64,000 nucleotides of DNA, taken from contig OZ374560.1 in the NCBI GenBank assembly GCA_977862235.1, forward strand, positions 124,001-188,000, in the 5' to 3' direction. The translations under genes and the position numbers were made by a program. Positions 1,765 through 64,000 of this stretch are shown here, in pieces. Every line of letters begins with the position of its first letter. The stretch's first letter is position 1. The notes under the pieces were generated by a model that saw only the letters and a list, made by a program, of their open reading frames with translations, made no database searches and was not told where the DNA came from. Origin of the DNA: Dudresnaya verticillata. Lineage: Eukaryota.

Positions 1765-1931
1765 GTTTGTTCGATAGATGTCTGGGGTGATGTTTCTGCG
1801 CGTGGAGGGAAAGGTGTTATCTGTGGAGTCGCCGCGGAAAGCGCCTATGCTGGACATAGACTTGGTGTAAACGGTATGATTGTTCCTGCAAATCCATTCG
1901 TCGAGTGTGGGTGTGCATTGCTTCCCGAACT

Positions 1932-11680: not shown

Positions 11681-11685
11681 TCTAC

Positions 11686-12361: not shown

Positions 12362-13214
12362 TGTGGTGCAAAACGTCTAAGACGATGGACCGCCGAGCAG
12401 TTCGGGGCTCGGTGGGTAGCTGCGCCATCAGCGGTAGGTAGTCCCGCCGTGGGCGACTTGTTGGTAGAGCAAAGGAACACGCCTTGGGCGGACTGTAGAC
12501 GCCCGAGGCGGAAGGTGTGAAGGAAGGGAAAAGGGAACAGAAAGGAACAAAAGGAAAGCACGTCAAGGACGGATAGAGACGTGGAAGCACGGGAAGTAGA
12601 CGCTTAGCCGTAGGCAGCGGTAGGGTACGCGCGTGCGGAACGGGGAAGTCTGGACCAAAGCCGGCTTGTCCGGGATTTACTCTGCGTCTCAGACGGATTA
12701 CCTAATATACTACGTGAGCGACAGCGGCGGGCGTGGTGCGCGGGAACTCAGGACGCGTGTCGCGCCGTCGAGTGCCTGACACGTCGTCGTCGCCATGCAG
12801 CCGCGTGCGCGGGAGCTCAGGAGTAGCTTACAGACGCATGCGTGTAGCGGCGCGGGGAATCCGTATTCGGATCCAGATCCCTGCCAGCATTGCTGGCGCG
12901 CGGCCATTACAGGCGCGCTCCTTACATCACTGTGGATCCGGATGCCGGATCTCGATGTCCCATCCGGATCCGATCCGGATCCGGGCCAAGCTTACAGGCG
13001 GGCGCCTTGCGCCCGGCCGATCGGGATCGTGCATCCGGATCTGGCCGTACAGTGGGCGCGTGCGCCGCGCCGCGCGGGGTAACGGCGGCCGTATGCCCGT
13101 GGGCCAATCGTCCATGACGTGTTCGCGCGCCAACGGCGGTTGACGTGCCATCGATAGACGATGGCATATAATACGCTCACAGCGAAAAAGGGGCAGCCCT
13201 CCCCTTGCACCAGA
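12362..13214 (-). repeat. 3' LTR of element A
   Basis: About 8 differences from 24915-25767 by eye. Confidence 0.95.
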
Positions 13215-20500: not shown

Positions 20501-22236
20501 GACTGTCGATGCCGCTGCAGAAGATTATTACGTCATCGAGGTAGACGAGGCACGAACGCCACTTGTAACCAGCGAGCAGTATGTCCAACGTTCGTTGAAA
20601 CGTAGCGGGTGCGTTCGTGAGACCGAATGGCATACGCTTATAGCGGAACAGTCCGGCGTGGCACTTGAACGCAGTCTTATTGCGGTCTCGCGGATTGATT
20701 GGCACCTGCCAGTACCCACTGTTACAGTCTAGGGTGGTGAAGACTTTTGCTTCCCCTAGACTGTCAATGCATTCGTCGATACGCGGCAGCGGGTACGTTT
20801 CCCGTATGGTTACTGCGTTTAAACGACGGTAGTCTACGCAAAAGCGGAGGGTCCCGTCCTTCTTGGGGGCGAAGACCACTGGTGACGCCCACGGAGATTG
20901 TGCGGGTTCGACAACCCCTTGACGCAGCATGCGGTCCTCTTCCGCTTGAGCGAGTTGTCTTTGCTTCGGCCCCGCTCGGTAGGGCGGGGACGATATCGGT
21001 CTAGAGCCGGGAAGCAAGTCGATGTAGTGCTCCGTGGTTGAGATTTCTCCCAACGAACCGTCCCACATAGACAAATACTTGCGTAACATCTCCTTAAGCC
21101 GACCTTGATGCTCGGCGGGGAGATGTCCCAGGTCCAGATCGTCTACTGACGGAGGTTTGGCAGTGGTTGCCTCGATAGACTTCGTGAAAGTATCCGGCTG
21201 TGCCGTAGTGTTATCGTTCGTTTGAAAACGGAAATCTTGGGTTGCCTTCTCTTCCTCGGCCTGTTCCTCTGTGAGGCCCAAAAAATCGGCTAGACTTACG
21301 TGACTGGGGAACACTGCTGTCGGATTTGGTAACGCCGTCGCGACGACTTGGCCCTTGGCCAGCGCCTGCGGGCGGGGAGAGAAGTTGGCAACCAGAATAC
21401 GAAACGCTTTTAGCGGTTCCACTTGAGCAATCCCGTTTGTAACGGCCAACCCTTGTTTGTCGTACAGCGTTCCGAACGGTTTAATTGTGATGATGCCGGC
21501 GCGCTCGGTGTTCACCGATACCCATTGCTGCGCCTTAGGCGGGATGATCGCGCGTTCGGCGACTCGGATCTTGGGCGACGTCCTCCCTTCGGCCTTGCCG
21601 TATTCCTGTTCCGTTGGTAACGGAGGATACGACGGAGGTCGGCGCAGCGGGCGGCGCGTTATAGGGACACGAGTCCCGTCATCCAATTCAACCTCGCGAC
21701 TTCGCGGATATATTGCTTCGACAAAGCGGTCGCAAAAGTCGCAGCCGTGTATAACCGGCGCAGCGAGTCGTTCGCAAACGATTAGTTCCAACTTGACGAC
21801 TATCCGTCCTAGACGAACGACCAGGTCGATGGTGCCTCTTGTCTAGATCGCCTTATTGTTGGCGTCGGCTATGACGGGGAGTCTCTTTGCCACGATGCGC
21901 GATCGCGCTTCCAGCGGAATGTCGTCAATGCGAATGAAATTCGGACCAGCCCCCGTGTCGAGGACAGTGCGTTTCGTGCCAAGGTACTAACGGTTGCGCC
22001 CAAATCGGCGTACACCTTATAGTTCCTCTTGGCCATTACGAACAACTGCCCTCGCGCCTGGGGGGCTGATACCGTCGCCATGGGCGTTTTAATGACGTCT
22101 TTGACGACTCTATCCGCCCGTTGGCATCATCAGTAACTAACTTCGGGCCCTCCTTCCGTGTCAGCACCCGAGGCCTAGGCCTCTCTTCACGGTGCGACAC
22201 CCCAGTGTCAGGATTTGGTGCCCGAGTTAGTTTTTC
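17563..22236 (-). pseudogene. pol: pol of element A: protease, RT, RNase H, integrase, chromodomain; several frameshifts
   Basis: VLDTGAGPNF (~21940-21968); FCVDYRRLN, LDCNSGYWQ, YLDD, DASEYQVG, EKECLAVVW (19770-21791); SDNGPQF, YHPQCNGQVERFN, GPY; EYVIERIESH...YRVKWFGYPASANTWEP (~17590-17720). Confidence 0.93.
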
Positions 22237-24912: not shown

Positions 24913-24914
24913 GA

Positions 24915-25767
24915 TGTGGTGCAAAACGTCTAAGACGATGGACCGCCGAGCAGTTCGGGGCTTGGTGGGTAGCTGCGCCCTCGGCGGTAGGTAGTCCCGC
25001 CGTGGGCAACTTGTTGGTAGAGCAAAGGAACACGCCTTGGGCGGACTGTAGACGCCCGAGGCGGAAGGTGTGAAGGAAGGGAAAAGGGAACAGAAAGGAA
25101 CAAAAGGAAAGCACGTCAAGGACGGATAGAGACGTGGAAGCACGGGAAGTAGACGCTTAGCCGTAGGCAGCGGTAGGGTACGCGCGTGCGGAACGGGGAA
25201 GTCTGGACCAAAGCCGGCTTGTCCGGGATTTACTCTGCGTCTCAGACGGATTACCTAATATACTACGTGAGCGACAGCGGCGGGCGTGGTGCGCGGGAAC
25301 TCAGGACGCGTGTCGCGCCGTCGAGTGCCTGACACGTCGTCGTCGCCATGCAGCCGCGTGCGCGGGAGCTCAGGAGTAGCTTACAGACGCATGCGTGTAG
25401 CGGCGCGGGGAATCCGTATTCGGATCCAGATCCCTGCCAGCATTGCTGGCGCGCGGCCATTACAGGCGCGCTCCTTACATCACTGTGGATCCGGATGCCG
25501 GATCTCGATGTCCCATCCGGATCCGATCCGGATCCGGGCCAAGCTTACAGGCGGGCGCCTTGCGCCCGGCCGATCGGGATCGTGCATCCGGATCTGGCCG
25601 TACAGTGGGCGCGTGCGCCGCGCCGCGCGGGGTAACGGCGGCCGTATGCCCGTGGGCCAATCGTCCATGACGTGTTCGCGCGCCAACGGCGGTTGATGTG
25701 CCATCGGTAGACGATGGCATATAATACGCTCACAGCGAAAAAGGTGCAGCCCTCCCCTTGCACCACA
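24915..25767 (-). repeat. 5' LTR of element A
   Basis: TGTGGTGCAA...TTGCACCACA termini; adjacent PBS. Confidence 0.95.
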
Positions 25768-34340: not shown

Positions 34341-35598
34341 CCGTAACGGAAGACAAGCTACTGTCGCTTGCGGTAATCGCAACTCCCCGCGATGTGCGCA
34401 ACTCCCCGCGATGTGGCGACCCGGTTATGGGAACTGCGTCTTGTCGACGCCTGCTACCGTTACGGGATGTCGTTGTTGCTCAAACTGGGGCATTCCACTC
34501 CGTCACGGATTTTGCCAGCGTGGGTCGCGTACCCTGCTGATGACGCGACCCATTTCCCGAAACGGTACTCTCGTTTTTCCGCAAGATCTCAGCCGGCGTA
34601 CTCTGCTGAGGTTCCACCACTTACGCGGCACTCTTCCGTCACGAAAATCGCGGGAGGGGCACGCCTTTTTCTTGCCATGGGTGGCCGCCCCAGCACGTTT
34701 GGACCAGGAACGGCCTCTTCCGCGACGGTACAGGAAAATTCCTCGGTCTCATTCTTCTCAGAGTCCCGGGTATATGTTAATATTGATGTTAATCTTAATA
34801 TTTTATATAGTTTTCAATATATTATTATATTGAAAATAATATATTAACACCGTCGCGGGTTGTGTTCATCTCAAGAGGGAGGGCTTCGTAGCGTGTCTAA
34901 TAAGGGCAGGGGTGAAGGTATTCGCCCGTAACCGCTACGGATTCCTGATACACGCGGCCTGCGCCGGTTTGTGGCGTACCTAGTCCTCCAGCTTCTCGCC
35001 ACCCAAGTCGGAACACCGTCCGTCAGGGGATAGCTGGTGTGAAGTACCGTCGTCCGATCGGAGTACGAATTGTCCATTGTGGATATGGGAGCGTAATCGA
35101 CTGCGCGTTTGGGCAGACAGTTGGGGAAACTTATTCCGCTACGGTGAGAACAACACTCTCCAAAGGTGTTTGCTCCTTTAGGAGTGGTAGGACCCCCATG
35201 TTGGATTTTTGCAAATGAGGCTGTCTGCGAGGTGCCTGGATTGCAATCCCGTTACGGTGAAAGTGGTACAAGACCTAGTGTCTGCTCCCCTGACACACGG
35301 GAGGAACCCGTTGCGGATGGGTTATGAGCTAGAAGACGACGACCAGCCTGGGCCGTCATCTCTTGCGGATGAGCGCGCCACTCGCGTCAAGCGCGTTTCG
35401 GTTATTCTCCGCGACGGTAGTCCTGGTATCAGAGGTGCGTGGAGTTTCCCAACGCATCGAAGCAAACCGTGACGGCAGTAGAGCAGTTGACGAGAGACCT
35501 GGAAAAGCTGCTCGAACCCGTTGATGGTGCGTTGGACCCTAGTCGGAACTCCGTTAACTTGGGCGCACGAGGACGTGTCGCCATTTAAGGAGGGGGTC

Positions 35599-36272
35599 TG
35601 TGGTGAAGTGAGATTCGGCATCCAAGACGGTGGAAATGCATATAGTGTGGTCTCTACCGTTGTGAGACGTGTGAACGTGTATCCGTGTCGGTTTTGTGCG
35701 CATTGCTCTGCGCTGGTACGCATTGCTGTACAGCAGTGTAGCACACCAACCATACCGGAGTATTTGTAGTATTTATTCTTTATTTTTAGAGAGTTTCTGT
35801 ACAGTGTGTAGAGTAGCGCGCCAGCCAATGAGAATGTTGCGCATGTCCGTGTCGGAGATTGGGACCAGCAGGGCCGATTCCACCATGGGTCCAGACCACT
35901 AGGGTCTGGCCCACACGGACCGGACCGCTCGGTGCCACCCTGACTTGTATATCAGGGCGGCACCGCAGCGGCTCCTAAAGTAAACAGCCAAGCAACCCTT
36001 GAGTCTCAATCCCAATGTAGCTCTTTCCTTTGCGGTTTTCCCCGCGCCGAGCCCGTTGCGGTCTACCACCACCACCGTTACGGAGTCCGTCCCGGCACTT
36101 GTACCCCCCTTGTCTGTTGCTTCCAAATATCCGTTTCGGTTAGCCGTTCGCTGTTCTCCCGTCTCGGTGCGAACTGCTCTACCACCCCGTGGAGGTATTG
36201 TCGCTCTCGTCCCGTGTAGGAAAGTTAGGCCAGCTGTCCGTTACGGAGTTCGTGGGTTTTCACTACACCACA
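35599..36272 (+). repeat. 3' LTR of element B
   Basis: Preceded by a polypurine tract, followed by TSD TCTAC. Confidence 0.95.
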
Positions 36273-38651: not shown

Positions 38652-38839
38652 ACATAGTCTCAAAAATATTGTAATGGAAGAACTGGAGTTCGGAATGGTA
38701 GCGATGCTGTTACTAGCATCTGACAACAATATACGTCACTTTGTCTACAAGTCTGTTCTCGACATTCCCTTAATTCGCACCGGTTCAAGTTGGAACTGGT
38801 GAACACGTCATTGTTATCACAGCTTATTAGAACATAGCA

Positions 38840-41800
38840 TTGAAAGGTTGCGTTTACATTACAATGCAACTGCTACCTACCTCGCTGGGGCCGTCTGTAC
38901 TACCGCACTCCATCAGCATATGCTCCTCAACACTTCTCCTTCCTCCGACTACTACGATACATCAATTTGCAGGCATGCAAGGTAGGGGAAAACTTACAAC
39001 ACCGATCAAGTCTGGTACTAGATATGTTGTTACAGCTGTTGTCGATGACATACTTAATGCCGTTTTCTCTCAGATTCAAGCTTCTACAAAAGGGTTTGCT
39101 GGAAACGTTTATGCAGACTTCTCATGGAGGGATCTAGCATTGGAACTGGGGGAAGCTGACAGCTCTTTGTTTCCGATTAAGTCCGCTAACAATGTCGACT
39201 TTTATCGATCCCCGTCTAGACGGACAATCGTCTTAGCTACAGAGGAAGTTTCTAATCGCTGGTTTTACCAGACCGGGCGGGATATTCCATTCTTTCGGAG
39301 TCGGGGTTGCAGAATGGATGATCCAGCTTTTAATGGACGAAAAATTCTACCGCCAACATTTGCTCCGGTCTTTCGTAGTTCCACGCGTTCAGTACGACGA
39401 GAGGGACGACAACGCAGATGTGCGTTCATATCGAAGGTCCGGAGACTTTGCGATGGAACCTTTGTACAATATACCGACTTTGTGACGAAGGTCCGGTGCA
39501 GCTGGAGTGCCTGTATATTGTACTCCTGCCCTGCACTTTTACACATTGTGGCATGCACTTCTGATTTACAACGTTCTAGCCTGTCCGAAGAGTCTGCGTC
39601 TAAAACTTTGCAAGTTCAGTGCGTATGGGAAGCTGGATGTGAGCATCAGCTAGGGGGTTTGTCAGAAAGTCCATGGTTCAAAAGTTATCAACTAATACAT
39701 TGCCCCCAAGGGGTTTCTGTCATGCCACCTTACAACACACCATATATGGCCGTGGCTGCTGGTAATCGCTCGTTTGATCCCGTAATTACCTCCACAGCAC
39801 GTCAGCTTCAGCACAGAAGCATAATGGAGACGTTTTTACACTCTCGTAACGTTTTAACGAATCTAAATCTCATTGCTAAGCAGCTGTCGTCTACGGATCT
39901 CAAGGAGGACCCGGAAAGGCAGAAGCGTTTCAAAGGTACTATACATGATATAAGAACAAGTGCGAGCGGCGACCTAATAAGTGCCTCAATTTACTCCGAT
40001 CGATCCGTCAAGCTTATGGCAAACGCGTTATTGGCAAACGGCCTGTATACAACTATATTAGATTGCTCTGGAAATCTAGCAGCCCTGGGTTGTTCTTCAC
40101 CCTCCTTGGATATGGTCAGCAGGTCTCTTCTGAATAAGGTTAAGAAAAAGGAACAAACACCGTATGGTTCACTGTAATTTGACTACTAAATTTCCATTTA
40201 TTAATACTACTGGCTACTGGACCTTTTGTGGTTCTGGAAGCAGTAACCGTTTACCGTACGGCGTTCGTTTTCGAGGATATTCTAAGACAGTTGTACCGGA
40301 GATTGATGAAAGTTAGCGGAAATGCGTACCCACAATACGTTGTTACTGATATGTCGGGTCCTTTGACTATAGCAGTCATCTCAGTCTTCAATCGCATTTC
40401 CGTACCGGAGTACATGGCTACACTTATCTGTACCTCGAAGCTCTTGGACAAAAATGGACAAAAGCCATCTAGTACAGTTTCCCATGTCGTCAGAACAACT
40501 CTGACGTGGTGCAACGTGCACGGAGACAGAGCTATATCACGCAAGGCAAAAGAAAATTTCAAACACCTGCCAGAAACATCTCTTAGAGAAATGATTTTCT
40601 TCATGAGGAACATAAGACTTTGCCTCAAGTCTGCCAATGCATATGAAGACCTTTGTTTGCTCGTAGGCTTCTTGCAGAGATTTTTGGCGCTGAAATACTT
40701 GCAATCAGTACCCGGGGGCCACCGTAGTACTCTATTTGTTGTGGCATCGGACGAAGAACTCATAGAAGAGGGCGAAGCTTCTATTTGGTGCCATCTAGGT
40801 GGCGTACCTCCCACAGGAGCCGATATAGATACCGTACGGGTCCGGGCATGCTTCAAAAGCGCTTTAATCCGTCCTTTTATGAGGAAAGGTTTAAAAATGA
40901 CTTATCCGATGCTTCGGAGTTCAATGAGAAGACTATACCTGATTTCAAAGCTCACGCCAAGCAAATTTCAAAGGATATTGCCGATTGTGAGGCCATTGAG
41001 CATGGCACACATGGCACGGTTGCTATGAAATTTGGGTCGATCAACTGTTTTGTGGTATGTCGAGAGCCAGACATTGGGCGTTATAGAGTCTACATTCCGG
41101 CTCTATCTTGCTTCCCAGGTTCAATTGGAAGCTTCAACACCTACAAATGTAGGGAACAGTCCGTACCTAACATTATCTTCTGTAGTGGAACGACGCTGGA
41201 CTATTTGCGAGAACAATGATTTCCCAACGTGGCCATGTTCTCTCAGGCAGTTGCCAGAGAGACCCCGCTTTCCCATAATAAATCTGTGGAGGTAAGCTTA
41301 AATATTCGTAAGTATCACTCTGATTGCGGAGTGCTGTCCCGAATAAGAACGGGTGGCATGATGAAAGACGAGTTTGTGAAACGTGCGGCAATTGAGCACA
41401 ACAGTGAGTGCAAGCGGGTCATATCTGAACTTGTGAGGATGGGGAGAGAGAATCGTGCAAAGAGAGGAGCTTCAGATGAGTACGTTTTACATCAGACGAG
41501 TAGCTCTTCAAAGACGATATCATTAGCTGGTATCGCAAGAAGTTTTGACTTCAGGGCAGCAAACGAAACTATTCTACAATCAGTGTTCAGCGTTAAATCT
41601 GACGTTCCAACAATCCCTGCTGGGGCTGCTCATGTGGGCGTGAAAAATAATACAAAGCCGCTCAGGCAGATGTCGCAACAAGACATAATGGATACAGAAG
41701 AGAGCTCGTTTAAAGATAGAAATGGAGTATCCAGAAGTATGGCTATTATAAAGTTTTGCAAGCTGTTTTCCGAGTCCCGTGAGAAGTATTGGCCTTCCTG

Positions 41801-41966
41801 GACACTAAGAAGGATTGCTTTCTTTATCACTCAGTATTGTGTGAAGATTGACGTCTCGACCGTATCGAGGATACTATCTAAGGCGGACAGGCTACCTGGC
41901 AAAAGGAAACGAGAGCTAATAACTAAGTTCTTGCTAAATGACTTGAAACGATTACTAGAGACATAG
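38840..41966 (+). pseudogene. Decayed MULE-superfamily (NOF/Rehavkus-like) DDE transposase
   Basis: Co-oriented ORF pieces with ILDCSG, VVTDMSGPLTIAVISVFN...EY, WCNVH, NKSVEVSLNIRK and an HTH-like tail (IDVSTVSRIL); no TIRs found. Confidence 0.55.
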
Positions 41967-49204: not shown

Positions 49205-50028
49205 ACGTGTATGCTACGTTGGTCACCCACTCGGTATAGAACGGGACCCGATATCTCGAATACGGATCGGTCATCAGCTTGGAACCAAGATACCTTACAC
49301 ACGGGGGGAACTCTGCTGCGAAACATTCGCATATCTCGAACTCACGCCACACAGGCGGCACCTTCAAAAAACAGTGAGGTAACTTACTTCGCTCAATGAG
49401 GTCGACCTGCTTGTCCTGGTAAGGCACAAACACGCCCTTTGGCGATGCGTTTCACATTCCCAACGGATACAACGCTTCCAGAAGAACGTACCCGTCCGAT
49501 GCAGATAACGAAAATCCACTTTTAAGCGTACACCTAAGACGTAAGCCTCTTGCAAAACGCGGGTCTCGATTGACACGCTCACGTGCTTCAGCGATAACGT
49601 CCCAAGACGAGCACCATATTTGGCCTCGCCGGTTGTCCGATATTGCCCGGCGTCAAAGTTGAAGATGGTCGGCCTCAGTGCCGACCCGGGGTAACGCGTG
49701 AAACGTCGATAGACGTCGGAGACGAATTGTGCATGGACATCCGCACGCGACTGCCCAACCTGGACCCAAAGCCATTCTGGACGAACGGCGCAGCGCAACT
49801 TCTACTCTAACGTCCAGACGACGCCAAGAGGCAGGCCCCTGGCAAGCATCCGTTAGTAGCGTAATTAGCGCCCAGTTCATCGCTGCGCGAAGCCTCCTTT
49901 TCGAACCAGGGGGCCCGCGAGAAGAAATGCGCGTAATCGCGAGGACTATTACCGACAAAGTCGACGGGCGATGCGTACACGGGCGCGGCCGAGGGCGACG
50001 CCACCTGCATGCCATTGAATATCGGCAT
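49205..50028 (-). pseudogene. Homolog of the element-A antisense ORF (frameshifted, truncated)
   Basis: RCAVRPEWLWVQVGQSRADVHAQFVSDVYRR...FDAGQYRT...LGTLSLKH...HRTGTFFW.RCIRWECET...IERSKLPHCF matches 13800-14648. Confidence 0.85.
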
Positions 50029-51407
50029 AACGTCGAAGACGAAGAGCCGATTTACGCCGCTGGCGATGTATTCACGAACGTCAAAAGAAGACTACTATCC
50101 AACCCCACAGGCGAAAGGGTCACAACGTACGTCAAAAACGATTGCTGTTCAACGCCACAGGCGATACAAAGCAATCTGTGTCAACGACGTTCGGTCACAA
50201 CGCCACAAGCGATAAGAGAAAGACGATAACGCCGAGGATGGTTGAGGTTGCGACGCCAAGCGGCGAGGGAAACTGCACGACGTCAACGACGGAAATCGGA
50301 ACGCGCCACGGGCGGTGATGTCGGTGTAGTGCAAGGGCACGCAGCGCGCAACACGAGCGGAGTTCGCACGGCACAGCCGAAGTCGCAAAGCGCACGCCCT
50401 GACGCACCAAGATGAGGCGCAGGAGCGGTCAAAGACGAAGGCAAGCGCGCAGCAGCAGGTTGAGGCTCGGACGTGTTCACGTTTTGGAGGGGGGTCGTGT
50501 GGTGCAAGGGGGGTGAGTCCCTTTTTCGCTGAAAGCGGAGTGACAAATACGTCGACCGACGGAGAAACCGCCACCGGCGCTCACTACCGCCGTTGGCGCG
50601 CGAAAACGTCATCGACGGCTCACTGGGGCGCGCGCCCACGTTGCGCGCCGCGTGCCATGCCGGCACTGTACGGTGACAGGCCGACATGGCGCCCCAGGGT
50701 ACTGTAACATGGATCCAGATTGGATCCGGATCCGGTATCCAGATTGGCTATCTGGATCGCCTACGCTGTGATGTACGCGCCTGTTAGACTGCGAGTGTTC
50801 GCATTGCTGGCCCGGATCGGGATTGGGGTCAGGATCGGACAAGTATTGGATTAGATCAGGATCGCGCGCTCTACAGTGCACGCGCACGCAGAACTGTAAG
50901 GCGCACGCGTCCACGTGTGTGTAAGCGCCCACGCAGGGTGCGTCGTGGCAATCTGCCAGACGCGCGGCTGCATGCGGTGAGCGATCTGTCAGACGCACCT
51001 CGGGACGACACGTGTCCCGAGTTCCCGCGGTGCGCACCCACGCCGCCGCCGCCGGCACGCCGTAGTGCTACACTTAGGTAAACCGTCCCAGACGTAGCAG
51101 TAACTCCTGGTAAAGCCGGTCTTGGTCCAGACTACCCCTCCCGCGCTACGCGTACCTACTCGCAAGCCCTGATACACAAGCGTCTGACCTACCGCGCTTC
51201 CGCGTCTACCTACCGTCCGAGACGAGCTTCCTTCTACCCCTCTTTTCCCTTTCTGTCCTGTGTTTCTACGCTTTCCGCCAAGGGCGTTGTACAGTCCGCT
51301 TTTGGCGAGTCCCTTCAGCTCTACCACCCTTTCCCCGCCATCCGCGGCTACCCACCGGACATCGAACGGTCTGGGGTTGCAGCTCGTCAACAGACTTTTG
51401 CGCCACA
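49205..51407 (+). mobile_element. 5'-truncated A-family element (D): antisense-ORF segment, PPT and 3' LTR (50498-51407)
   Basis: Homologous to the reverse complement of 12362-14460; GGAGGGGGGTCG before TGTGGTGCAAGG; GCAAA on both flanks. Confidence 0.85.
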
Positions 51408-51456
51408 GCAAAAATTGAACGCTATTCGTGGCATCGTGTCCGCCGCGCCACCGAAG

Positions 51457-52228
51457 TGTAGTATAGCTGTCAGCACACTATCAGCAGCGGCTGTAAGGTA
51501 TGCTAGCCGCCCCTCACTGTAATGTTGCACACGATGACGCCCGCTGGCGAGTCGTGGTTGGGCAGCGTGCCCTTGATTTTTTCGTTGATTTAGTAGCGGT
51601 CGACCGCATTGCTGCCGGCAGCGGCCGCGCGCCGTGCCGCACACGGTGCGCCCCAGTGACGCTCTCTGGCATCGAGCCGTTGAGAGGGCCGCTGCCCGTT
51701 ACGCCCCGCGCGCGACCACGGGTAGCCGTTACCCGGACGTGTCGACACGTGTATGGGCGCGCTCGCACGCCTCCCGCGTTGGTGTTGTGGGGCGCACCTA
51801 CTGTAGAGTAGCCGTAGTGTACATAGCGTAGGGTATTTAAGGCCGTCTGCCATCGACGGCTCAGTAAACCGGGCAAGCAACAGCTCGCGCTGAAGCTTGC
51901 CCCCAGCCTCTTCGGGTTCGATCCCTTTGCCTTACGCCAGCGGGCGGTTTCCCTTTTTCCCTTTGCCTCGCTAGGCTTTTCCCCTTTCCTTTTCCTTTCC
52001 GTTGGCTTCTTGCTGCCCTTCGACAGGGACGCTGAGATCAGGCCGCTGCTTACCCGCGTACGGTACGCCCCGTGCGCGCTCCGGCATCGACGCCGTCGAT
52101 CCGCACCTGCGGGGCGCACGCGGCCGACACCGCTCTACCATACACAACAGCTACCCATCGACGGGTCTGTGTGGCGCCTTCGGACCAGCGAGTATTAGAC
52201 GTCGGATCAACCCCACGTCTATACTACA
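51457..52228. mobile_element. LTR (family E) without matching TSD
   Basis: Perfect 10-bp terminal inverted repeat TGTAGTATAG/CTATACTACA; partial second copy at 53552-53800; followed by a gypsy protease-tail-like fragment (IDVESRRLTLRNGGSLPIL). Confidence 0.75.
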
Positions 52229-53551
52229 CGCGGGATCGACGTCGAGTCGAGAAGGCTGACGCTGAGGAATGGAGGCTCGTTGCCCATCCTCAGCCGCCCT
52301 AGCGAGGGAAACGGTCCGGCAGCGCAGCCGAAGAACCCATCGAAGGGTTTGTCGAAGAAGCACCAGCGGGAGCTCCTCGACTGGGGTCACGACACCCACA
52401 CCATACGCCTAGCTAGGCAGGTGGTTGTCCCAGCCTACTCGCAGAGCTCGTCTCGGTGACGTCCCTCTTGTTCCTCACTACCTCTTATGTTTTGATTAAT
52501 GCGTGAGGTTTTTCAATTGTGGGGGTAGCAATTGATTCAAGACAAGAACTTTATGTCCCCCAGTCAGTAGCTCACGCACTTTTCACTTCTGACAGTGTAA
52601 TGCTGAAAATCGCGCATCGTTATGTATCAGACTATCGGTATTCAGCGAAAAGTGCAGCCAATGGGCAAGCAAACACAACTGCATAAGACACACCTCAAGG
52701 AGGTGGAACTGCTACTGCGGAGTCGGAATCTGCTTGGAGACGTTTTGATGCTGCCACCCGGAGATTTAATGGGAAAAGTAAGTACAGCGGGATTCTGGCC
52801 GCGTCCTTGTATCTAACTGAAGCGAGGAATGCGAGTGTTACTTTTTGCAATCAAAGGGATTTCCTCGCCCTGATCGTGTCCACCGTGGCGCTTGCCTCCT
52901 GAAGGGGGCTGTTCTGAACTACAGCAACGTACATATTGATGGGAAGCCGCAATTAACCGAACTAGGAGCTTATGTCATGAGCTGGAATCTCAGTCCGATA
53001 AACCTGCATAGCACCGTCAAACAGAGTCGCTAGCGCTCTCGCTGACAATGAAGGCTCCGAGATAGAAGCACAAGTGTAGTCCTATTGCAGCCCCAGGGCT
53101 ACTTTACCACGAAGTTGCCGACACAATCAGCCACTTCCAACAGGGAAACGTCGGCCCGCCTTTCGCATTCAGACGATAATGAAGGTTGTAGAAAAGTATG
53201 AGTGATCACGCACAGCAGAAGAATAAGTAATGTAAAACAAAAAAGACTATGATAAGCTCTATATGAAGCTTTCTGGAGCATTGGAGCTCTGGGAGGGTGA
53301 AGTTGAGCGTTCTGGACAGGATACAGACGCCGTTGATGCCTTGAAAAGGCGTGAAGCAATGTTATAGCTCTTATAGGGTACGGAGCTCACTACGAAAACC
53401 GTATTGTATCTAGGAAGACACAGAACAAAAACACCAGCCATGTCTCGGTTAGGTCATCCTCGTTTTGGGACGCACTACAAATCGATGACAACATCGCCGT
53501 TCCACTACTACTGCATCTCATAGACAACAGTCAAGTCCTTTTCCATGTACC

Positions 53552-53800
53552 TGTAGTATAGCTGTCAGAACCCTATCAGCAGCGGTTGTAAGGGGTGCGC
53601 AGCCGTGCACTGTAATGGTGCGTGCGATGACGCCTGCTGACAAGCCGTATTTGGGTAGCGAGCCCGTTAGTTTTTTCGTTAATTTTAGCGGCGCTCGATC
53701 GCCTTGCTGTCGGCAGCGCTCGTGAATCGTGCCGTAGACGGCGCGCCCCAGTGGCGCTCTCCAGCATCGAACCGTTGAGAGGGCCGCTGTCCGTTAAGCC
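53552..53800. repeat. Truncated copy of LTR family E
   Basis: Colinear with 51457-51705. Confidence 0.8.
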
Positions 53801-54604
53801 TTGTTGAAAGTTTCTACAGGGCGTAGGCCTGTTCGATCTCTACTCAGATCGTCGCAGGTTTCAAGGTACCTTACTTATACGTTTGTGGAAGCGAAAAGCG
53901 CTCGCGATCTGCAACTTTGCACAAACGGCCAAGCCAATTGCCCTGTCTGGAACGTATCAATGTAACAACTCGCACTCGCTGGCTGCGTTGCCCAACAGGT
54001 CATAGAACAGGGGTTCGTGTGTTAGGTTTCCGAAACATGGTTCCTCCTGGGCTTGTAAGCGAAATCACTCCCTCTGTTTAGTTTAGCCTTTATATAACTA
54101 CCAAGGCGCTGAGCTAATGGCTACATGTCCGTTTGTTTGGCACGACTGAGCTCATGGCGGCACAGAACATCTTCTCTACCTATTCTGGTCTGTCTGATCA
54201 GGCAGGGCGTTCCATTTACTGTGAGATCCAGATAATAGGGTGACGGAGGCGGCTGCAGTTGTGGAACTGATTTACGTACGGTGGCGCGTTAGAGGGCGAT
54301 AGGCCAGAAGGAGGAGCGTAGCACCTCCGACGCGCTTCGCATGTCACCACTAGGGTGCTTCTCTGAACGCGACTAACTCGTGCGTAGTATAAGGCCTCCC
54401 GCCTTCCGAGTAGCAGAAGCGGGAGAAGGGGGTGAGGATTTTAGCTGTACTACTGCGGACCCCAGCCAACATTGGCTACGGTCGCTCAGTAAAGCCACCC
54501 GCCGTCGGGTAATCCTGAGCCAAACGACATTCGCGAATTAGCGGCTCGTTTCAAATCTATCCGCGAAGCGCAGCGAGCGCACGCCTCGCAATTAACCCCT
54601 TCCG

Positions 54605-54985
54605 GTCGCGAGACTCCCGCCGCGCGCGTACTTCCACTCGAGACTCCCGCCGCGCGCGCACCTCCACTCCATTATCAGCACGCCACCCACGCCTCTTGGC
54701 GCGTGCCCACCACCCAGCGCCCCACCGCCGCCGCGCACCAAGCACTGCGCCGCCGCGCCCCAAGCGCCGCGCCGCCGCCGCGCACTAAGCGCCCTGCCGC
54801 CGCCGCACACTAAGCGCCCCGCTGCCGCCGCGTGCTAAGCACGCCCGGCCGCCGTCGCGTCCCAAGCGCCTGCCACCGCCGCCTCGCACACTGCAGTGTG
54901 CAAGGGCCCGCCGCCGCCGCCGCGCACACTGTGCAAGTGCCCGCCGCCGCAGCCGCGCACACCAAATGCCCGCCGCCGCTCCTGC
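54605..54985 (+). repeat. GC-rich degenerate tandem repeats (CCGCCGCCGCGCAC-based; one 30-bp duplication) inside the copia LTR
   Basis: Read directly. Confidence 0.8.
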
Positions 54986-55700
54986 CAGTGGCGCATACTG
55001 GCAGCCGGGACCGTACTGTGCATCCTTCTACTGTACAGTGGTGCCGGCCCACTCTCCCCCTGGGCATTGCGCTGCCGCTTCCCGTGGCATGCCCCGCCGT
55101 TCTACAAGCTCGTGCGCTCCGCTCGCCGAAACCTAAGGTTTGCGTGGGAATCCGTCAAGGTGATACGTGGTATCAGCAGCTGGCGCTTCGAAGAATCGAT
55201 TGACCGCTCTAACCCGCGCCGGTGATGAGTATATACACGCAGTGACCCCCATAGCAGCGTCATCTTCATACGCTTGCGTCCCTGTGGTACTTCATAGCCC
55301 GGGTGGGAGTCACTGTGAGAGGATAGTGCTTACGGGGTGACTTCAGTCCGCATGCAGTAAACCCCCGTCAATTCGTGGTCGACCCCTTCGGGAAGACTAT
55401 CCTTACCAGGGCTGCAGCCTATCGACCTCCCCGACTAATCGCTGCACGCAACTTCGGTTGCAATAGCGTGGGACCTTAGGTGGCTTAAGCAAAGAGCAAA
55501 GCGTGAGTAGGACCTTGCGCACAAGTCAAAGGCGACTTGTCCAGCGCGCCTAAACTCTTGCTGTTGGTATTCCCGGGTTAGGGAAAGGTGTCTTTGAGTG
55601 TTTACCGGTTGCGAAGGACCGGTCCTTGGCCAACTACCGTTAGCCACGGGGGATACCGACCGTATACACGGGTCTTTTTGTTGCTGATATTGCTGCTGTT

Positions 55701-55772
55701 CAGGAAGAAGTTCAGGTAGACGTTTTCAGGAAGAAGTTCAGGAAGAAGTTCAGGAAGAAGTCCAGGAAGAAG
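55701..55772 (+). repeat. 12-bp repeat CAGGAAGAAGTT, ~5 units, in the copia 5' leader
   Basis: Read directly. Confidence 0.85.
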
Positions 55773-57975
55773 CTATTGCAGAGAAAGTTACAGGTCTGAG
55801 GGTATCCTAACCCGACCTCCAATATGTCGACACCTGCTGGGACCGGTGGACCGCCGGGTGAAACACCCGGGGATGGCGACGACCCGGTATTCCCCACTAC
55901 ACCCGAACAGCCGCCGAGTCCGACCTTCATGGCAAACCTCCCTCAGCGAGAGGTTGATGGCATGAAAAACATCCAGCGGGGTTTTATAACAACAATTCGT
56001 CTATTGGACGTCAAAGAAAACCTCATGGGTCCGTCATTGCTTCGATGCGCCGCAGAAATGTTTCTGCCGGCCGTGCTGTTTAGCCCCGACCTCCGTGCCA
56101 TCCCAATGGTGCACGTCCAGCTTCGCAACTTTCTGGAGTCAAGAGGCGCAAACATGCAGCCACACGCTTCTCGTCGCATAGTCATGACGTCGGCACAACA
56201 TTTTCAGTCATGACGACGAAGACAAGGAGGCGGCAATCGCCATTGTTAAGGACATAACTGCGCACGGCCGCCGAAACCCGAACCCATTCGGCGCCCGTGC
56301 AAGTTCCCCGGCACCTCCGTCCGAAGATAGCCCCCATCATAGGTCATCCGGAGGGGGCCCCACGTCAGATAAGGTCGCCCTTAATGTGGACATGCGCCTC
56401 AAGGAGAACTCTCGAAAGTTCTCCGGCGACATAGGGGAATGTTGGCAGGAATTCGTCGATAAGTACCGTGAGATAGCAAGAGACTACAACTTATCTCTAC
56501 AGCAAAAGCTGCAGTATCTACGCAACCGACTCCGAGGCGATACCAAGCGGTTCTACCTGGACAACATCGACGGCTATGCACAAGGATTTCAGCACGCCGT
56601 CGACATGATCGAGAAGGAGTACAACTCCCTTGTCCGGCAGAACAAGGTGAAGAATTACCTTAAGTCCCTCAGGCTAAGCAAGTTTATAGCTGAGGGATCC
56701 GAGGCTGCTGAGGCCCTGGAGAAGGTATATCGGGTCATCACCAAACTCTCACGCGAAGCCACTCCGACACACCGAGGCGACGCTCACAAGGTCGAATTCT
56801 TGGCCGCAGCAGTGGCCGGATAAGAATGGTCCATCGAGCCTCTAAGCCGCATCGCCAGTCGGGCTTAACTTTCAAAAGCTGTATGGAGAATTGGAGTGCC
56901 AACTACAGCTAGCAAAGGAAGCTGAAGTGGCAAGACTCAAAGATGAGATTTTCGCGCGGTCGTGAACCAAGAAAGTATCTCATGACCCCCATCTCCCCGG
57001 ATTCTATACGCCGGGAAAGCTCGATACGGTCGTCAGCAAGTCACATCATATGGGGGACGAGGCAGGATGGGTTAACGACTAGGTGGTAAGGCGGCCACCT
57101 TCAACCCCCTTTCAGTCACTGGGTGCGTCAACTGCGGCGACCCGAATCACATGTTGAAGGACTACAAGAAGCCTCGGAACCTTGCCCGAGCTGCCTCGAG
57201 GAAGCTCGAGTACTACGCCAGGAAAAGGTCGCAAGCCAATGCCGGCGTCCACTTAGTATTAGCTGATATATGCTACCAGATGGACCGGTCGAACTTGGAA
57301 GACGGAAGGAGGGAAGACGAAGGCGAGACAGCCGCGGAGGAAGATTCCCCTTCGGACCGTGAAATGCTTGAGGCTTTCATGTCCACCGCGGAGCCCACGA
57401 TATACCTGACCCACTCCCGCTCGCAAGGTTCATTCTTCCCAGCACTTTTCTTCTGCTTACCCGAGGCCCAGATGGCCGATGTCTTTATCCTGCTGCAACG
57501 GGACTTGGTCTAGACAGCTGCGGCACGCGCAGTTTGCCGAGCGCGCCGAGCCGCCCGACGTCCCAACTAAAATTAAAAGAAGAGAAGGTAACTAAATGAG
57601 GGGTGGGAGGTGGGCCGAACCAGGAAGAAATCAGAGCTGCCGGGGTCAACCGTGCGAAGCTTACGGGGAGGACCTCCTAAAGAACTCAGCACTGAGTCAC
57701 CCGCTAACGCGCTCGCTCTCCACCAAAACTGTTTGACCCCGGGCCTGTCCCTGACCCTTCCGCCCCCAAAGCGATATTTCCAGCGCCAGGCGTCCCTGAC
57801 CCTTCCGCTCTACGCGATATCCCCAGCACCAGGCTCAGCGGAACTCTCGGATTTTTCGAATAAACCGTGCTGCAGAAACATCTTCTGTCGAAACACCATT
57901 CTGCCCAGCACTCTTCTTCTGCTTACCCGAGGCCCAGATGGCCGATGTATTTATCCTGCTGTAACGGGACTTGGT

Positions 57976-58966
57976 CTAGACCGCGGCGGAACGCGCAGTT
58001 TGCCGAGCGCGCGCCGAGCTGCCCGACGTCCGCACCCTCCCCACGCTGGAACGTGCCCAGCGTTCCGCATAAGCTGCAATGTCTTGAGAGGAGGTCGGAG
58101 AGAGCTGTACCTTGAGTAGCAGTCCTTTTCCGGCTTGTAGATAGCGCGTGCAGGACGCGTCGGATGCCCAGCGTCCTTTGTGCATAACCTCAGCAAACGG
58201 CTTGTTGGACAACCAGTCAGCGGTGGCTCCTCCGCGCCTTAATGACTGCAGCATGAAACCAAAACCGGACAGTCCGAAAATAAGATAAACTGCGGCTTAA
58301 GGCTGAGCTGAACGCAACGTACTTGAGGTCGAAGAGCATGATGTCTGCCTTGTCGCCGCGAAACGTGAGCCACGCGGGAAGGAGGCGGAGTAGATGGGCA
58401 TCCTCCAACGGCACGAATTGATTACGGCCGGTCTTAGCACCGCGAACAACGCAACCAGCTCGGCTAGGTGCGGTACCATCCGCCAGCCGAACATCTCCCG
58501 GCAGATCAATATCGCCGACGCGCAGTGATAACAGCTCCAGGGCACGAAGGTAACCGTGATGTGTCAGGGCGAAGGCGATAGCGAGGTCTGGCCGAGCATC
58601 CTTCGCACACTGTGCGCAGATCGCGTTCACAATCTGTTTAGAAAGCGGAGGTGGGGACTTGCTTGGCACCAGTGTGTTCCAATCGTCTAAGGCCTGCCGT
58701 GCCAACGGCAGAGTACGCCGCAAGGAGGCACCGAAGAACTCAATACCACAAATCGCGTTGACCGAGCGTTGTCGGCTGCCTCTGCGGGGATCTTCATCAA
58801 AGCGGAACGTTATGTAAGCGAAAAGGCCGCTGTCCAGCTGCTGTGGGTAAAGCGTTGTTGGGACATTACAAGAAAGCCATCTACAAAAGTCCGTAACAGC
58901 TTCTTGGTATGCTCGCACTGTCCCCGGCTTGAGCGAAGCACTAGCGAGGACGCCAATCATTCGCAT
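57976..58966 (-). pseudogene. Tyrosine recombinase (one frameshift)
   Basis: GYLRALELLSL, KTGRNQFV, SLRRGGAT, HKGRWASDASCTRY provide the R/K/xSxR/W/Y catalytic pattern. Confidence 0.88.
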
Positions 58967-60762
58967 TTATTCGCGCAGCGCCGAATGCGCGCGACGGGGC
59001 GTCGGCGGGGTTACACTCGGAGTGTACCCAGTAGAGGCAGATCTGTACATTGTAGAAAACCAAAGCAGCTGCGATGCGACGACAAAGCTTGTTTAGTTTC
59101 CAAGAGCTGGCACGGCCTTTTCGAAGCGCTCCCAGAACGGCGGTGTTGTCGATTAATAGCACGACCCCTTGCCCAGATGTGAGGGCAGAGCGGCGCATGT
59201 GACGGACTGCGAGGAGGGCTACTTCCATCTCCAAGAGATTGATATGCTGGCCCCGAATCCGCCAAGCGGTTGCAATGGCTGTTTTGAACGAGACTCCTGC
59301 GAGCGTAGAACGGAATTTTTCGATACTGTGAGCGGCTGCTGCACAGCGGTTGCGTCGGGTATACAGTTCGCGAGAGCTGATAATCCCTGCTCGTTCTCGG
59401 AGCCGAGAGCTAGCTCTGCTGCGAAACCGCACGCGTCGTGGTCGGGGGTACTCTGCGCCATGGTGTACCACCCCTTTTTGACTCTGGTTTCTCGGATACC
59501 TTCCAAAAAGTGCCGCAGCTCCTCAACGCCGAAATCAACGTAAGTGACAGCACCCCCTTTCTTGGTCGCATCGGATGCGTAGACTCGGGTGCACTCCGGG
59601 CCGCGAAGGTCCGCGTTCATCAGCGGGAACAGATCTAGCATCATCTCCAATTCAAGCTCCTGTCCGGCCGTTAGTGGGCGACGTCTGTTCGGTCGCTGAA
59701 GAGCGCATAGGTAGTACACCTCGCTTAGCGTAGATAGCGGACAGCGGCGAAGCAGACACGCCCATGTCCAGCGTCCCAGCAGGGTCTGCATTTCTCGGGG
59801 GCTGGAGGCTCGGCGGCTCAAAACGGCCTCCGTTTCGTCGAGGATGGCCTGAGCCAGGGCTAGCTTCACCGTAAGGATCCCTTGCCGCCGCCACCACAAC
59901 CCAAATGCCACGCCGGGGTGCTCCTTAGATGCGCGTTGGCGCTTAGCCGTAGCCTCCTTCAGACCCAAGCGTGCCAGCATGCGCTGAATCCGTGCTGGCT
60001 CCTCGTTCTCAACGGACTCCCTTGTAGTGACGGTGTTAAAATCATCCAGGTACACAATCTGCAAACCCGGACGTTCATCTAACCTGCTTCTACCATCAAC
60101 AGACAGGATGCCTGAACCTAGCCCGGACCGGCGGACGACTGCGAGTGACGCGGCCTGCGCGAAGCTCACCGCGAAGGAAGCCCCCATTGGATACACAGGA
60201 GGCAGGGCACTACATAAGCCGAGCGGAGGTTCGTCTCGACCAGCGAGGTGGAGATGGGAGGTAACCCCATAAAAGGGACTAGGAAGGACGGGGCCATCAG
60301 ACGGTTATAAAACTGCGATATATCGCAGGAGGAAACGAATAGTTCCTCATCGACTGGTAGGCAGATGTCCCCGAGCAGATCTGGTGCCGGGAGCTCGACC
60401 CGGCTTGCTTCAGGACGGAAGAGCTTGTTAGAGCGACTCCCGCCCCAAATAACCCGTTGACTGACGCCTTTCTCCTTCCAGACCCCAAACAGGGAATTCT
60501 CCACGACGTCATCCCCCGGGGTCTTAAAGCAAATCATACCACTGCGATGCATCCGAGCAAGCCGGGCGGGGTCGTGTCTGCTCTTAACCCCCAAGTGAAT
60601 GGGCTCCTTGCATAACACCGCCGTTGATATTCGCTCGGTCGGAGGGAGTAACAAATGTTCTTCTTTTATCAAGTAATAGTATTCCGGGAACAATATGTCC
60701 TGGAGGTCAGCAGTTGCAGCACTGAGAGGCTCGGGCACTGCAGCAAGACGGTGGTCGAGCAA
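58941..60762 (-). pseudogene. Reverse transcriptase / RNase H of the YR element (frameshifted)
   Basis: CDISQFYNRL, PMGASFAVSFAQ, VYLDDF, YASDAT, HINLLE, IDNTAVLGALRKGR, WVHSECNPADAPSR. Confidence 0.9.
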
Positions 60763-60837
60763 GCAGTAATCGTCCTTTCCCGAGGGGGCAGCCTCCCACA
60801 GTAATCGCCCTTTCCCGAGGGGGCAGCCTCCTGGCTG

Positions 60838-62764
60838 CTAACTCATCCGTGCCGAGTTACGCGGAGAGTGCTGCTGCCGCATGGAGATCCAGAGTCCGCT
60901 TCGCAGCAGACTGCAGGAACGCATCGACAGGGCCCTTGATGCCGAAAAACGCCATCTGGGAAATCTCGAATTGTCCACGTGTCGCTCGGTCCCCCCGTCC
61001 GAGACCCACTTCTCGCCCACAGCTAGATAGCGGACCATCCTCTCCACGGCAGTTGTGTAGCACGCTGTCCTGGGGTGGAACTCGTCCAAGATTGACGCCA
61101 GGGTCAATCCCACCACAAGGACTTGCCTCGACGGATAGCCGTCCGCGTTGTCCTTCTCGGCTGCTCCGACCCTGCTGGCGAGGTTCTTGACATACGGCTC
61201 TAGTGAGCCGTTTGTCAGCCAGCCCTCGATCTCGAACGGGGCGATACAGTCCGGCGCCCGGAAGGCCAAGCCGGCGGCGCTCTCGCGGCCGCATGTGATG
61301 CAGACTCACGGAGGTGAAAATGTCTTTGCAGCCCTTTGGGGAGATCGGCAGCCCGCGAGCGTGACACACTTGGTCCGTGGCTCGTTCTTGTTCTTGAAAA
61401 ATATCCAAGAAATGCTCCAGCTAGGCCACATTGGAAAACTGTGAACGATGCGACTCGTATTGTGCGACCAACAAGGGCCCCCCGTACCGCAGAACGCGCC
61501 TGAAATTCTTCGGAGCGTGAAGGTACGTCCGTCTCTTCCTATGGTTCAAGTCCCTCATCTCAGCGGGAAGCGCGGCCTTCCCGCCGCCCGAATCCTCCTC
61601 GGAACCTGAAGACTCCTGTGTTCCTTCGGCTTCCGAGTTGCTCAAGCTCATACTGCCGCTGCCAGCATCTCCGTGCCGGGAACCTTTACGGCTCACATCA
61701 ATGAGGAAAGACGGGGCTTGTTGCGCCGCAGAAGAACCAGCGACGCGCCGTTTCCCTTTCGCGCTCTCCTTGCGCTTTTCAGCGCTTCCCTTTCCTCCCG
61801 ACTGCCCCTCGGTAACAGGAGCGGGAAGGCCCCCGCCCAGGTCGGCGTTTTGCCAAGCACGCGTGCCGGCCTTCTCGGTCCGGCTGCCAGGCTCTGGCTG
61901 CAATCTCCGGCCAGTCGGGCGACCTGCTGCAGGCAAAAACGCTGGCGGCGGTGTGACATCAGGGGCGGCGACCGCGGTTTTCAACAGCGAAAGGAGCAAG
62001 GCGCGGCACTTTGTAGCCTTCGGCTAAAACGGGCCTTCAGCATCAGCCAAAACCCCAGCGAGATTCCCCGCCTCATCTGCGTCTAGATCACATACTAGAG
62101 CGGCACTCCAGTGTTCCTTGAAGGCAACGAGGATCTCCTTCTTGGCATGGCCGACAAGGCGACCCATGAAACCTTCAACACTCGATTTGGTTGTAGAAAG
62201 CTCCCAGAGCTGGACCAAGCACTTCAAAACTGTTTTAGCAGCAACACGGTAAGCGAACTTGCGTTCGCTGTTATCCGGATCCCATTTCACTCCGAGTTGA
62301 TCCAAAGCCTTACCGATTACGATGGACAACGCGTGCGGCTCCTCCTTCAGGAACAGGGGGTCTAGCGCCGCCCCAACGCTCAGCCGACCTGCGTCCACAG
62401 ACTCGGAGGCCTGCCATACACGATGCACATCGGCGACGATCGTATCCGCGGTGCGTTTCCTGGGTTTCACCTCGACGTAGCAAGCAGGCAGGAACTCCCT
62501 GTAGGCCACACGCTCTTCCTCTATAGACGGACAGCTCTTTTACTGGTACCCGGCCTCAGTTGAGCCGATCTCAATCTCCTTGGCGATCTGATGCAGTTCC
62601 TTCTCCGCGGTCCCTTCAATATAAGCGTTGAGCAAGTTTCTCCAGGACAGCGATCTGAAGAAGGAGATGAGCTCGGAGCCTTTCAGTGTCACGAGCTTCT
62701 GACCCGCGTCAGGCGCCACCAACAAAACGGCAGGGGCAGCCATTGCAATCACGCAAGAGAACAA
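60838..62764 (-). pseudogene. gag-like ORF1 remnants of the YR element
   Basis: Series of minus-strand ORF pieces between repeat A1 and the RT; assigned by position only. Confidence 0.45.
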
Positions 62765-64000
62765 ATATGCAACCAGAAGAAACGCGGACTCTTAGTCTGA
62801 ACACCGAACCAGGAAAAACACCGAGCTGCCGGGGCCAACCGTGCGACGCTTACGGGGAAGACCTCCTAAAGAACTCAGCACTGATTCACCCGCTAACGCG
62901 CTCGCTCTCCACCAAAACTGTTTGACCCCGGGCCTGTCCCTGACCCTTCCGCCCCCAAAGCGATATTTCCAGCGCCAGGTGTCCCTGACCCTTCCGCTCT
63001 ACGCGATACCCCCAGAACCAGGCTCAGCGGAACTCTCGGATTTTTCGAATAAACCGTGCTGCAGAAACATCTTCTGTCGAAACACCGTTACCCTCACTAG
63101 GCTCTGCTGGATTGTCTGATGAATCGTACGAGATGCCGGAAGACTTTGATGAATGCTCAGACGAGTCATACGGGCAAGAGAACGACGATGTCGACGAAGT
63201 TGCGCCTGAAGAAATTCAGGTAGTTCACGACGCCACACAAGCGGCGAGACTATTGTTCACCGACACAGATCATGCACGCCCATTTCAAGGAGCATGCGTC
63301 GACACGGGGGCACAGCGGTCGGTCGTAGGCAAGCAGCAGGCGATCGCATACTGCCAACATATGGGGATCCAATATAACCTGACGGAAGAAGGCAGCAACC
63401 AAACGAGATGGTCTTATCGTTTCGGCGACAAGCGGTATGAGGGCCTTGGCCTCATACAGGTCAGGATACCTGTCGAAGACGACCTGTTCATAACCATCGA
63501 CCTAGAGGTTGTGAACGTGGATGTGCCTATGCTATTTGGGCTCGATTACATGGAACAATACGCTGTCGTTATCGATGTCGGCAAGAGTACTATGGCTTCG
63601 AGAAGCAGAAACTGGAGCGTCCCACTGACCCACAAACGGGGCCACCTTTATGTGACATGAGACAAAGCCATTCTGTACTCGGTCGATGAACTGCGAAGGC
63701 TAAACGGACACTTCTAGCACCCGAACTCGCAGCGATTGTGCAGTGTCATGAGAAGAGCGAATCCATAAGACTGCTCGCCTGATGACCTGCCGGAGTTGAA
63801 AGCCATCGAGGAGTCCTGTGACATATGCCAACGCTTGGCGCAGGCTCCGCACCGGTTCAGGGCGTCGCTCCCGGCGAAATATGTTGTGTTCAATCGTACC
63901 CTGAGTCTAGATCTAATGGCACTGGAAAAGCGTCCAGTACTCCACGTGGTTGAGAAGGACACGAAAATGAGCGCCGCGTGTTTCCTCAAGGCGGAACACG

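What the first reader, a model, noticed from the sequence alone, without database searches (positions are those of the whole stretch)
57420..63100. Full-length YR retrotransposon with split direct repeats and a reconstructable crossover
Seen: the minus-strand layout is A1-[gag, RT/RH, YR]-B1-A2-B2. On +, the internal A/B junction reads AAACAC-C-ATT, the left end AAGGTT-C-ATT and the right end AAACAC-C-GTT. The empty site is therefore AAGGTT-C-GTT, with crossover at the shared C of a C(A/G)TT core. Excision restores the host copia frame (...SQGSLPSLGSAGLSDE...). Knowledge: A1...B1A2B2 is the PAT/Ngaro arrangement and implies a circular intermediate integrated by the recombinase. Inference: the RT/RH wording (PMGASFAVSFAQ; RKGRASSWKLNKLCRR) looks unlike canonical DIRS1, so this may be a poorly described lineage in this host group.
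Basis: partly seen in the sequence, partly recalled or inferred. Interest (0 to 1): 0.7.

Follow-up and report, generated by a model that had tools for sequence, protein, structure and literature searches.

The report
Decayed Ngaro-type retrotransposon with hairpin junction
This is a full-length but mutation-broken jumping gene of a known, uncommon kind that carries a tyrosine recombinase instead of the usual integrase; its ends show where it likely crossed into another jumping gene, and the spot where its repeats meet is predicted to fold into a small hairpin of untested role.

Summary
Observation confirmed. A 5.66-kb minus-strand element reads A1-gag-RT/RH-YR-B1-A2-(51 nt)-B2 (A 96%, B 93% identical) and interrupts an LTR-element polyprotein without shifting its frame (5,655 nt). 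With no later mutation the crossover falls at one shared C and the target was CAAGGTTCGTTACCC; one later substitution would allow a CATT target. No empty site or second copy could be found, so this stays inferred. The copy is broken (at least four stops, three frameshifts, recombinase H-x-x-R reads QSLR). There is no room for a methyltransferase and YR follows RH: Ngaro-like, not PAT, DIRS1 or VIPER. The odd RT wording is shared by a large family (1,079 representatives); the window sits in an 11-sequence clade (SH-aLRT 100); the one named relative of 21 looked up is a dinoflagellate. No named Ngaro/VIPER reference could be placed in the tree, and the host is unidentified. New here: the B1/A2 junction forms an 11-pair stem with the crossover at its top (26 of 2,544 window positions do as well). 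The scan noted Ngaro-type elements and a junction hairpin before, on other genomes. Verdict: new member of a known kind.

The parts
62804..63089 (-). Repeat A1 (5' end of the element)
   Evidence: 95.8% to A2 over 286 nt
60857..62743 (-). ORF1, gag-like by position; stops at 62542, 62026, 61423; frame changes near 61300 and 60960 judged by eye only; no CCHC knuckle
   Evidence: no Pfam match; label is positional inference
58941..60963 (-). pol: RT (CDISQFY, PMG, YLDD) and RNase H (DA-T, E, D, NPAD); stop at 60840, frameshifts near 60185 and 59410
   Evidence: tblastn of intact relatives in three successive frames, 45-52% identity to P0002; alignment; 46 of 65 relatives match RVT_1
58060..58966 (-). 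Tyrosine recombinase, directly after RNase H; frameshift between 58412 and 58278; R, K, R, W, Y motifs present, H-x-x-R reads QSLR (58248)
   Evidence: ESM features 0.97 to integrase clusters; weak Pfam PF00589 E 0.029; aligns to the YR of RT-RH-YR fusions P0083 and P0131
57897..58031 (-). Repeat B1
   Evidence: 92.6% to B2
57897..57900 (.). B1/A2 overlap (CATT on +), internal copy of the recombination junction
57867..57911 (.). Imperfect inverted repeat across the B1/A2 junction: 11 pairs, 2-nt bulge, 21-nt loop; crossover at the loop-side end of the B arm
57615..57900 (-). Repeat A2
57564..57614 (-). Unique 51-nt spacer between A2 and B2
   Evidence: no other copy in the window
57431..57563 (-). 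Repeat B2 (3' end of the element)
56188..57430 (+). Host LTR element, 5' part: gag (PF03564), degenerate zinc knuckle, acidic linker; many stops
63087..64000 (+). Host LTR element, 3' part: linker, aspartic protease, then an integrase-like HHCC stretch (by eye)
   Evidence: PF09668 E 1.5e-4; integrase not confirmed

Best explanation
This is a mutation-broken, full-length retrotransposon with split direct repeats, a reverse transcriptase/RNase H gene and a tyrosine recombinase but no methyltransferase, which likely belongs to the Ngaro-like type and was likely inserted by its recombinase at a C-R-T-T site inside another LTR retrotransposon. Shown: anatomy, gene order, breaks, the three junction sequences, an unchanged host frame. 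Inferred from the known model: a minus-strand RNA is reverse transcribed, the internal B1/A2 copy templates the missing ends, the ends are joined into a B/A junction identical to the internal one, and YR recombines that junction with the target, exchanging strands beside one shared C (target most likely CAAGGTT-C-GTTACCC, about 0.8), with no duplication or loss. Inferred and weaker (about 0.3): the recombinase reads the junction as a folded single strand rather than as a duplex circle. The copy then decayed (repeats 4-7% diverged).
For: Repeats and junctions. Only cuts just before or after the C need no later substitution. A random 4-mer matches CATT at 3 or more of 4 places with p 0.04, which hints at a preference for TT; NTT ends, some with one mismatch between the two ends, are reported for DIRS1-like elements (PMC3266345 passages). 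RH ends at 58986 and YR starts at 58966, no room for a methyltransferase; no DPPY/NPPY-type motif in that stretch; 0 of 65 relatives match a methyltransferase family, 46 match RVT_1, 2 match Phage_integrase; 66 of 70 long relatives end within 36 residues of the RT-RH profile match, and two (P0083, P0131) run straight on into a YR that aligns with the window's YR. Same layout as Cafeteria Ngaro (PMC8547959 passages). Junction stem: z -3.0 and -2.9 in 59-nt windows, 1 of 200 shuffles as stable; 26 of 2,544 window positions and 0 of 460 coding positions reach 11 pairs.
Against: No empty site, second copy, sequencing run or related DNA locus was obtained, so target and crossover rest on one insertion. 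No named Ngaro, PAT, DIRS1 or VIPER protein was in my tree, and methyltransferase loss is known to be homoplastic (PMC4157794). The RNase H leans weakly towards the hepadnavirus profile (5 of 65 relatives), a trait reported for VIPER, not Ngaro (PMC6681497). The hairpin fades in 81-nt windows (z -1.0, -1.6), several coding windows fold better, my stem score was chosen after seeing the stem, and the B2 copy breaks one pair.
Confidence: 0.8

Rival explanations
1. The element belongs not to Ngaro proper but to a separate, unnamed lineage of YR retrotransposons (PMG-type RT, VIPER/hepadnavirus-leaning RNase H, Ngaro gene order) that includes SymbioDIRS-like dinoflagellate elements.
For: 1,079 representatives, nearly all unnamed; the only named one of 21 looked up is Prorocentrum cordatum; window RT pieces and P0001 give no RVT_1 match; ESM nearest clusters are unnamed, hepadnaviral P at 0.87; SymbioDIRS RT is reported to fit Pfam poorly.
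Against: Structure meets every Ngaro criterion I could test; stramenopile elements of this layout are already filed as Ngaro; the Prorocentrum row is a long branch far from the window; YR-group RT trees are poorly resolved in print.
Confidence: 0.3
2. The target read CATT, a perfect 3-4 base core as in the DIRS1 trinucleotide model, and the G at 63087 is a later substitution.
For: Needs one substitution; A1 and A2 differ at 4.2% of sites; the host codon is Ser either way.
Against: A change at this one site has a prior of roughly 1-2%; mismatched ends are tolerated in some DIRS1-like elements.
Confidence: 0.15
3. A PAT-like (Toc3-type) element that has lost its methyltransferase.
For: Same repeat layout, no zinc knuckle as in Toc3; such a loss is reported once in C. 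briggsae.
Against: No methyltransferase in any of 65 relatives that are only 23-42% identical to P0002, so the absence is family-wide, not a recent loss.
Confidence: 0.05

Closest known systems
Ngaro-like retrotransposons (order DIRS), e.g. the Cafeteria burkhardae types (PMC8547959, passages), Xenopus DIRS-53_XT (PMC9210276, passages), fungal Ngaro 1-4 (PMC3783388, passages)
   Same: A1-gag-RT/RH-YR-B1-A2-B2, about 6 kb, no methyltransferase, insertion into another mobile element (Cafeteria), YR in frame with or shifted from pol among relatives.
   Different: RT too divergent for Pfam RVT_1 in this copy; 51-nt spacer between A2 and B2; no SGNH hydrolase; phylogenetic membership untested.
SymbioDIRS elements of Symbiodinium (PMC5890265, passages)
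   Same: A-coding-B-A-B repeats; RT reported as fitting Pfam poorly; a dinoflagellate protein is among the RT relatives.
   Different: No cytosine methyltransferase here; the dinoflagellate relative is distant (about 30% identity, long branch).
VIPER/TATE of kinetoplastids (PMC6681497, passages and section 6)
   Same: Split direct repeats, no methyltransferase, RNase H leaning to hepadnavirus.
   Different: In TATE the RT/RH is ORF3, after YR; here YR is last. Reported only from kinetoplastids.
Integron attC sites (PMC8876359, passages) - mechanism analogy only
   Same: A tyrosine recombinase crossing beside a TT-containing core; a folded strand with a bulged stem is the substrate there.
   Different: Here the crossover sits at the loop-side end of the stem and the core is not paired as in an attC R box (attC geometry recalled); nothing shows this YR uses single strands.

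Membership tests
Ngaro-like | Split direct repeats A1-ORFs-B1-A2-B2, internal repeats downstream of YR | tested here: met
   criterion in PMC4157794 section 7
Ngaro-like | No methyltransferase domain | tested here: met
   20 nt between RH end and YR start; 0 of 65 relatives with a methyltransferase family
Ngaro-like | Order gag, RT/RH, YR on one strand | tested here: met
Ngaro-like | RT/RH groups with named Ngaro references | not testable with these tools
   1 of 21 looked-up relatives named; the reference alignments of PMC6681497 are unreadable .fas files
PAT-like (Pat1, Toc3, kangaroo) | Methyltransferase after RH | tested here: not met
PAT-like (kangaroo) | Inverted YR, internal repeats between MT and YR | tested here: not met
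   YR is on the same strand as pol and upstream of B1
PAT-like (Pat1) | Zinc finger in gag | tested here: not met
   no CCHC match in ORF1; the only match lies in an off-frame of RT; ORF1 is decayed
DIRS1-like | Inverted terminal repeats with internal complementary region | tested here: not met
   0 inverted pairs of 25 nt or more in 50000-64000
VIPER-like | YR before RT/RH | tested here: not met
   YR is last; TATE ORF3 holds RT and RH
VIPER-like | RNase H close to hepadnavirus RNase H | tested here: inconclusive
   PF00336 E 0.0024, below cut-off; 5 of 65 relatives at E 0.01
Copia (host element) | Order protease, integrase, RT | tested here: inconclusive
   protease hit; integrase only by motif (negative); RT beyond the window

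The most novel reading that the evidence does not exclude
A widespread, unnamed lineage of methyltransferase-less YR retrotransposons (Ngaro layout, VIPER/hepadnavirus-leaning RNase H) integrates through a folded single-stranded junction, needing only one shared base and an adjacent TT in the target, in the manner of integron cassettes rather than through a duplex circle.
Probability: 0.15. Interest if true: 0.7.

Novelty: new member of a known kind. Interest (0 to 1): 0.3.

Why it matters
As it stands it is one dead copy of a known class, useful because nesting inside a coding sequence fixes both ends to the base and suggests a crossover with only one base of identity. How YR retrotransposons integrate is still untested (PMC7192593). 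If the junction stem is conserved with compensatory changes in sister families, it would give a concrete substrate to test and would fit the single-stranded cDNA seen for DIRS-1. The 1,079 mostly unnamed relatives show that this RT lineage is large and under-described.

Tried and rejected
No whole genome is held. No sequencing run was listed for 57000-63600, so no reads across an empty site or circle; this is no evidence either way. Word-based protein searches gave 1 hit for RT and none for YR or RH. Locus searches found no relative in viral contigs, metagenome contigs (44, 82) or prokaryote genomes (84). The predicted empty site had 0 matches in the window and 29 exact short matches in viral contigs, none with blastn or tblastx similarity to host or element: chance. 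No other copy or solo repeat in the window. Single-sequence fold of YR was useless (pLDDT 36) and was not searched. PDB searches: YR only XerC-like E 0.34, RT piece none, family profile hits LTR/retroviral RTs. The window's gypsy RT could not serve as outgroup (no usable match, dropped); the tree is the quick IQ-TREE run with SH-aLRT only, 70 relatives of 560 residues or more out of 151, P0044 cut to its first RT copy. A motif search in one VIPER supplement found nothing. No TpA or CpG depletion sets the element apart, so the hypermutation noted for diatom copies does not apply. A loxP-type dyad centred on the core was looked for and not found. [quoted passage not shown]

Full report
Observation. 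On the minus strand this is A1-ORFs-B1-A2-B2. B1 and A2 overlap by four bases (CATT on +), and a unique 51-nt spacer lies between A2 and B2. No other copy or solo repeat is in the window.

Junctions. Left end AAGGTT-C-ATT, internal AAACAC-C-ATT, right end AAACAC-C-GTT. Assuming the joined ends equalled the internal junction, only cuts just before or after the C need no later substitution, and they imply the target CAAGGTTCGTTACCC; three cuts further on need one substitution and imply CATT. The C-to-C distance is 5,655 nt, so the host frame is unchanged, with acidic linker on both sides between a gag and a protease. This is a 1-in-3 test and cannot separate the two targets because both codons are Ser. 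A random 4-mer would match CATT at three or more places 4% of the time. DIRS1-like elements begin and end with NTT, and some show one mismatch between the ends (PMC3266345, passages), so a CRTT-like preference is plausible. I put about 0.8 on the G target. It was not observed: no genome, no run listed, no related locus, and the short-pattern hits were chance.

Genes. A profile of the RT C-terminal half plus one Logan relative found 1,079 representatives at E 0.001 and 22 at 1e-30. Intact relatives align to the window in three successive frames (P0002: 48, 45, 52% identity), placing two frameshifts in pol; a stop lies at 60840. Catalytic motifs of RT (CDISQFY, YLDD) and RNase H are present. The YR scores 0.97 to integrase clusters by language-model features and aligns in two frames with the YR of two RT-RH-YR fusion relatives; its H-x-x-R reads QSLR where they read HSLR. 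ORF1 has three stops and no Pfam match; 'gag' is positional. The copy cannot be autonomous.

Class. RH ends 20 nt before the YR start. Of 65 long relatives scanned, 46 match RVT_1, 5 the hepadnaviral polymerase C-terminal profile, 2 Phage_integrase and none a methyltransferase; 66 of 70 end within 36 residues of the RT-RH match. By the published structural key (PMC4157794, section 7) this excludes DIRS1-like and PAT-like elements, and YR last excludes the VIPER/TATE order (PMC6681497). It matches Cafeteria Ngaro (PMC8547959, passages). In a quick tree of 71 rows the window lies in nested clades of 4, 7, 10 and 11 rows (SH-aLRT 97, 98, 96, 100). Only 1 of 21 looked-up relatives has a name, Prorocentrum cordatum, on a long distant branch. 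No named Ngaro, PAT, DIRS1 or VIPER protein could be included, so phylogenetic membership is open. Symbiodinium elements with A-coding-B-A-B repeats and a Pfam-poor RT are in print (PMC5890265, passages).

Host. No tool named the organism. That the window looks like a florideophyte red alga is my recollection only. If so, the order DIRS is already counted in Kappaphycus striatus (0.92%; PMC11822179, table passage), though my searches found no description of a red algal Ngaro family; the Bostrychia preprint's main text has no mention (passages) and its supplements were not seen. Ngaro is abundant in the brown alga Ectocarpus (PMC12477816, passages). The interrupted element has gag and protease hits; its 'copia' label rests on an integrase-like motif seen by eye right after the protease.

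Junction hairpin. An earlier AI note on another genome (e1-9809039) suggested that Ngaro junctions fold. Here the end of B1 pairs with the start of A2: 11 pairs, a 2-nt bulge, a 21-nt loop (57867-57911), with the crossover at the loop-side end. In 59-nt windows z is -3.0 and -2.9 (1 of 200 shuffles as stable); in 81-nt windows only -1.0 and -1.6. Among 374 windows across the element, junction windows holding the whole stem rank 2 to 24. Eleven pairs are reached at 26 of 2,544 window positions and 0 of 460 coding positions, and the real ends score 4 and 5; I chose this score after seeing the stem, and B2 breaks one pair. It could be a folded single-strand site, paired binding sites on a duplex, an RNA signal or chance. 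DIRS-1 cDNA is mostly linear and single-stranded, while the duplex circle remains the model for integration (PMC7192593, passages and section 26). One search found no paper drawing the attC parallel.

Mechanism. Shown: anatomy, breaks, junction sequences. Inferred from the known model: transcription, reverse transcription, end repair from the internal B1/A2 copy, joining, and YR crossover at the C without duplication. Speculative: a folded single-strand substrate (about 0.3).

Verdict. Real and correctly read; a decayed new member of the Ngaro-like type from a large unnamed RT lineage. Interest 0.3.

Noticed in passing
window 10-1774 and 2385-4188: Two convergent copies of a roughly 590-codon ORF, 87.8% identical, with no Pfam match for the copy scanned; a third related-looking ORF with two internal repeats lies at 4638-6659.
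   Followed up: no
window 12361-13212 and 24914-25765: 852-nt direct repeats, 99.2% identical, bracketing a gypsy-type RT/RH/integrase at 18666-21839: a young LTR element, itself between an older 93.8% pair at 11685-12359 and 35598-36269.
   Followed up: partly
window 60764-60831: 35-nt tandem duplication near the 5' end of the YR element's pol.
   Followed up: no
window 57747-57810 (and the same place in A1): Repeat A holds a 17-nt word twice at about 45-nt spacing, seen by eye.
   Followed up: no
window 55562-55792: TG...CA stretch with a 12-nt tandem array upstream of the host gag, a candidate 5' LTR; no partner in the window.
   Followed up: partly
window 38831-41966: Three long ORFs in a lower-GC stretch (44-47%) with no Pfam match beyond a weak HTH; possibly a decayed DNA transposon.
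   Followed up: no
proteins P0083, P0131: Relatives in which RT, RNase H and YR form one continuous ORF.
   Followed up: partly
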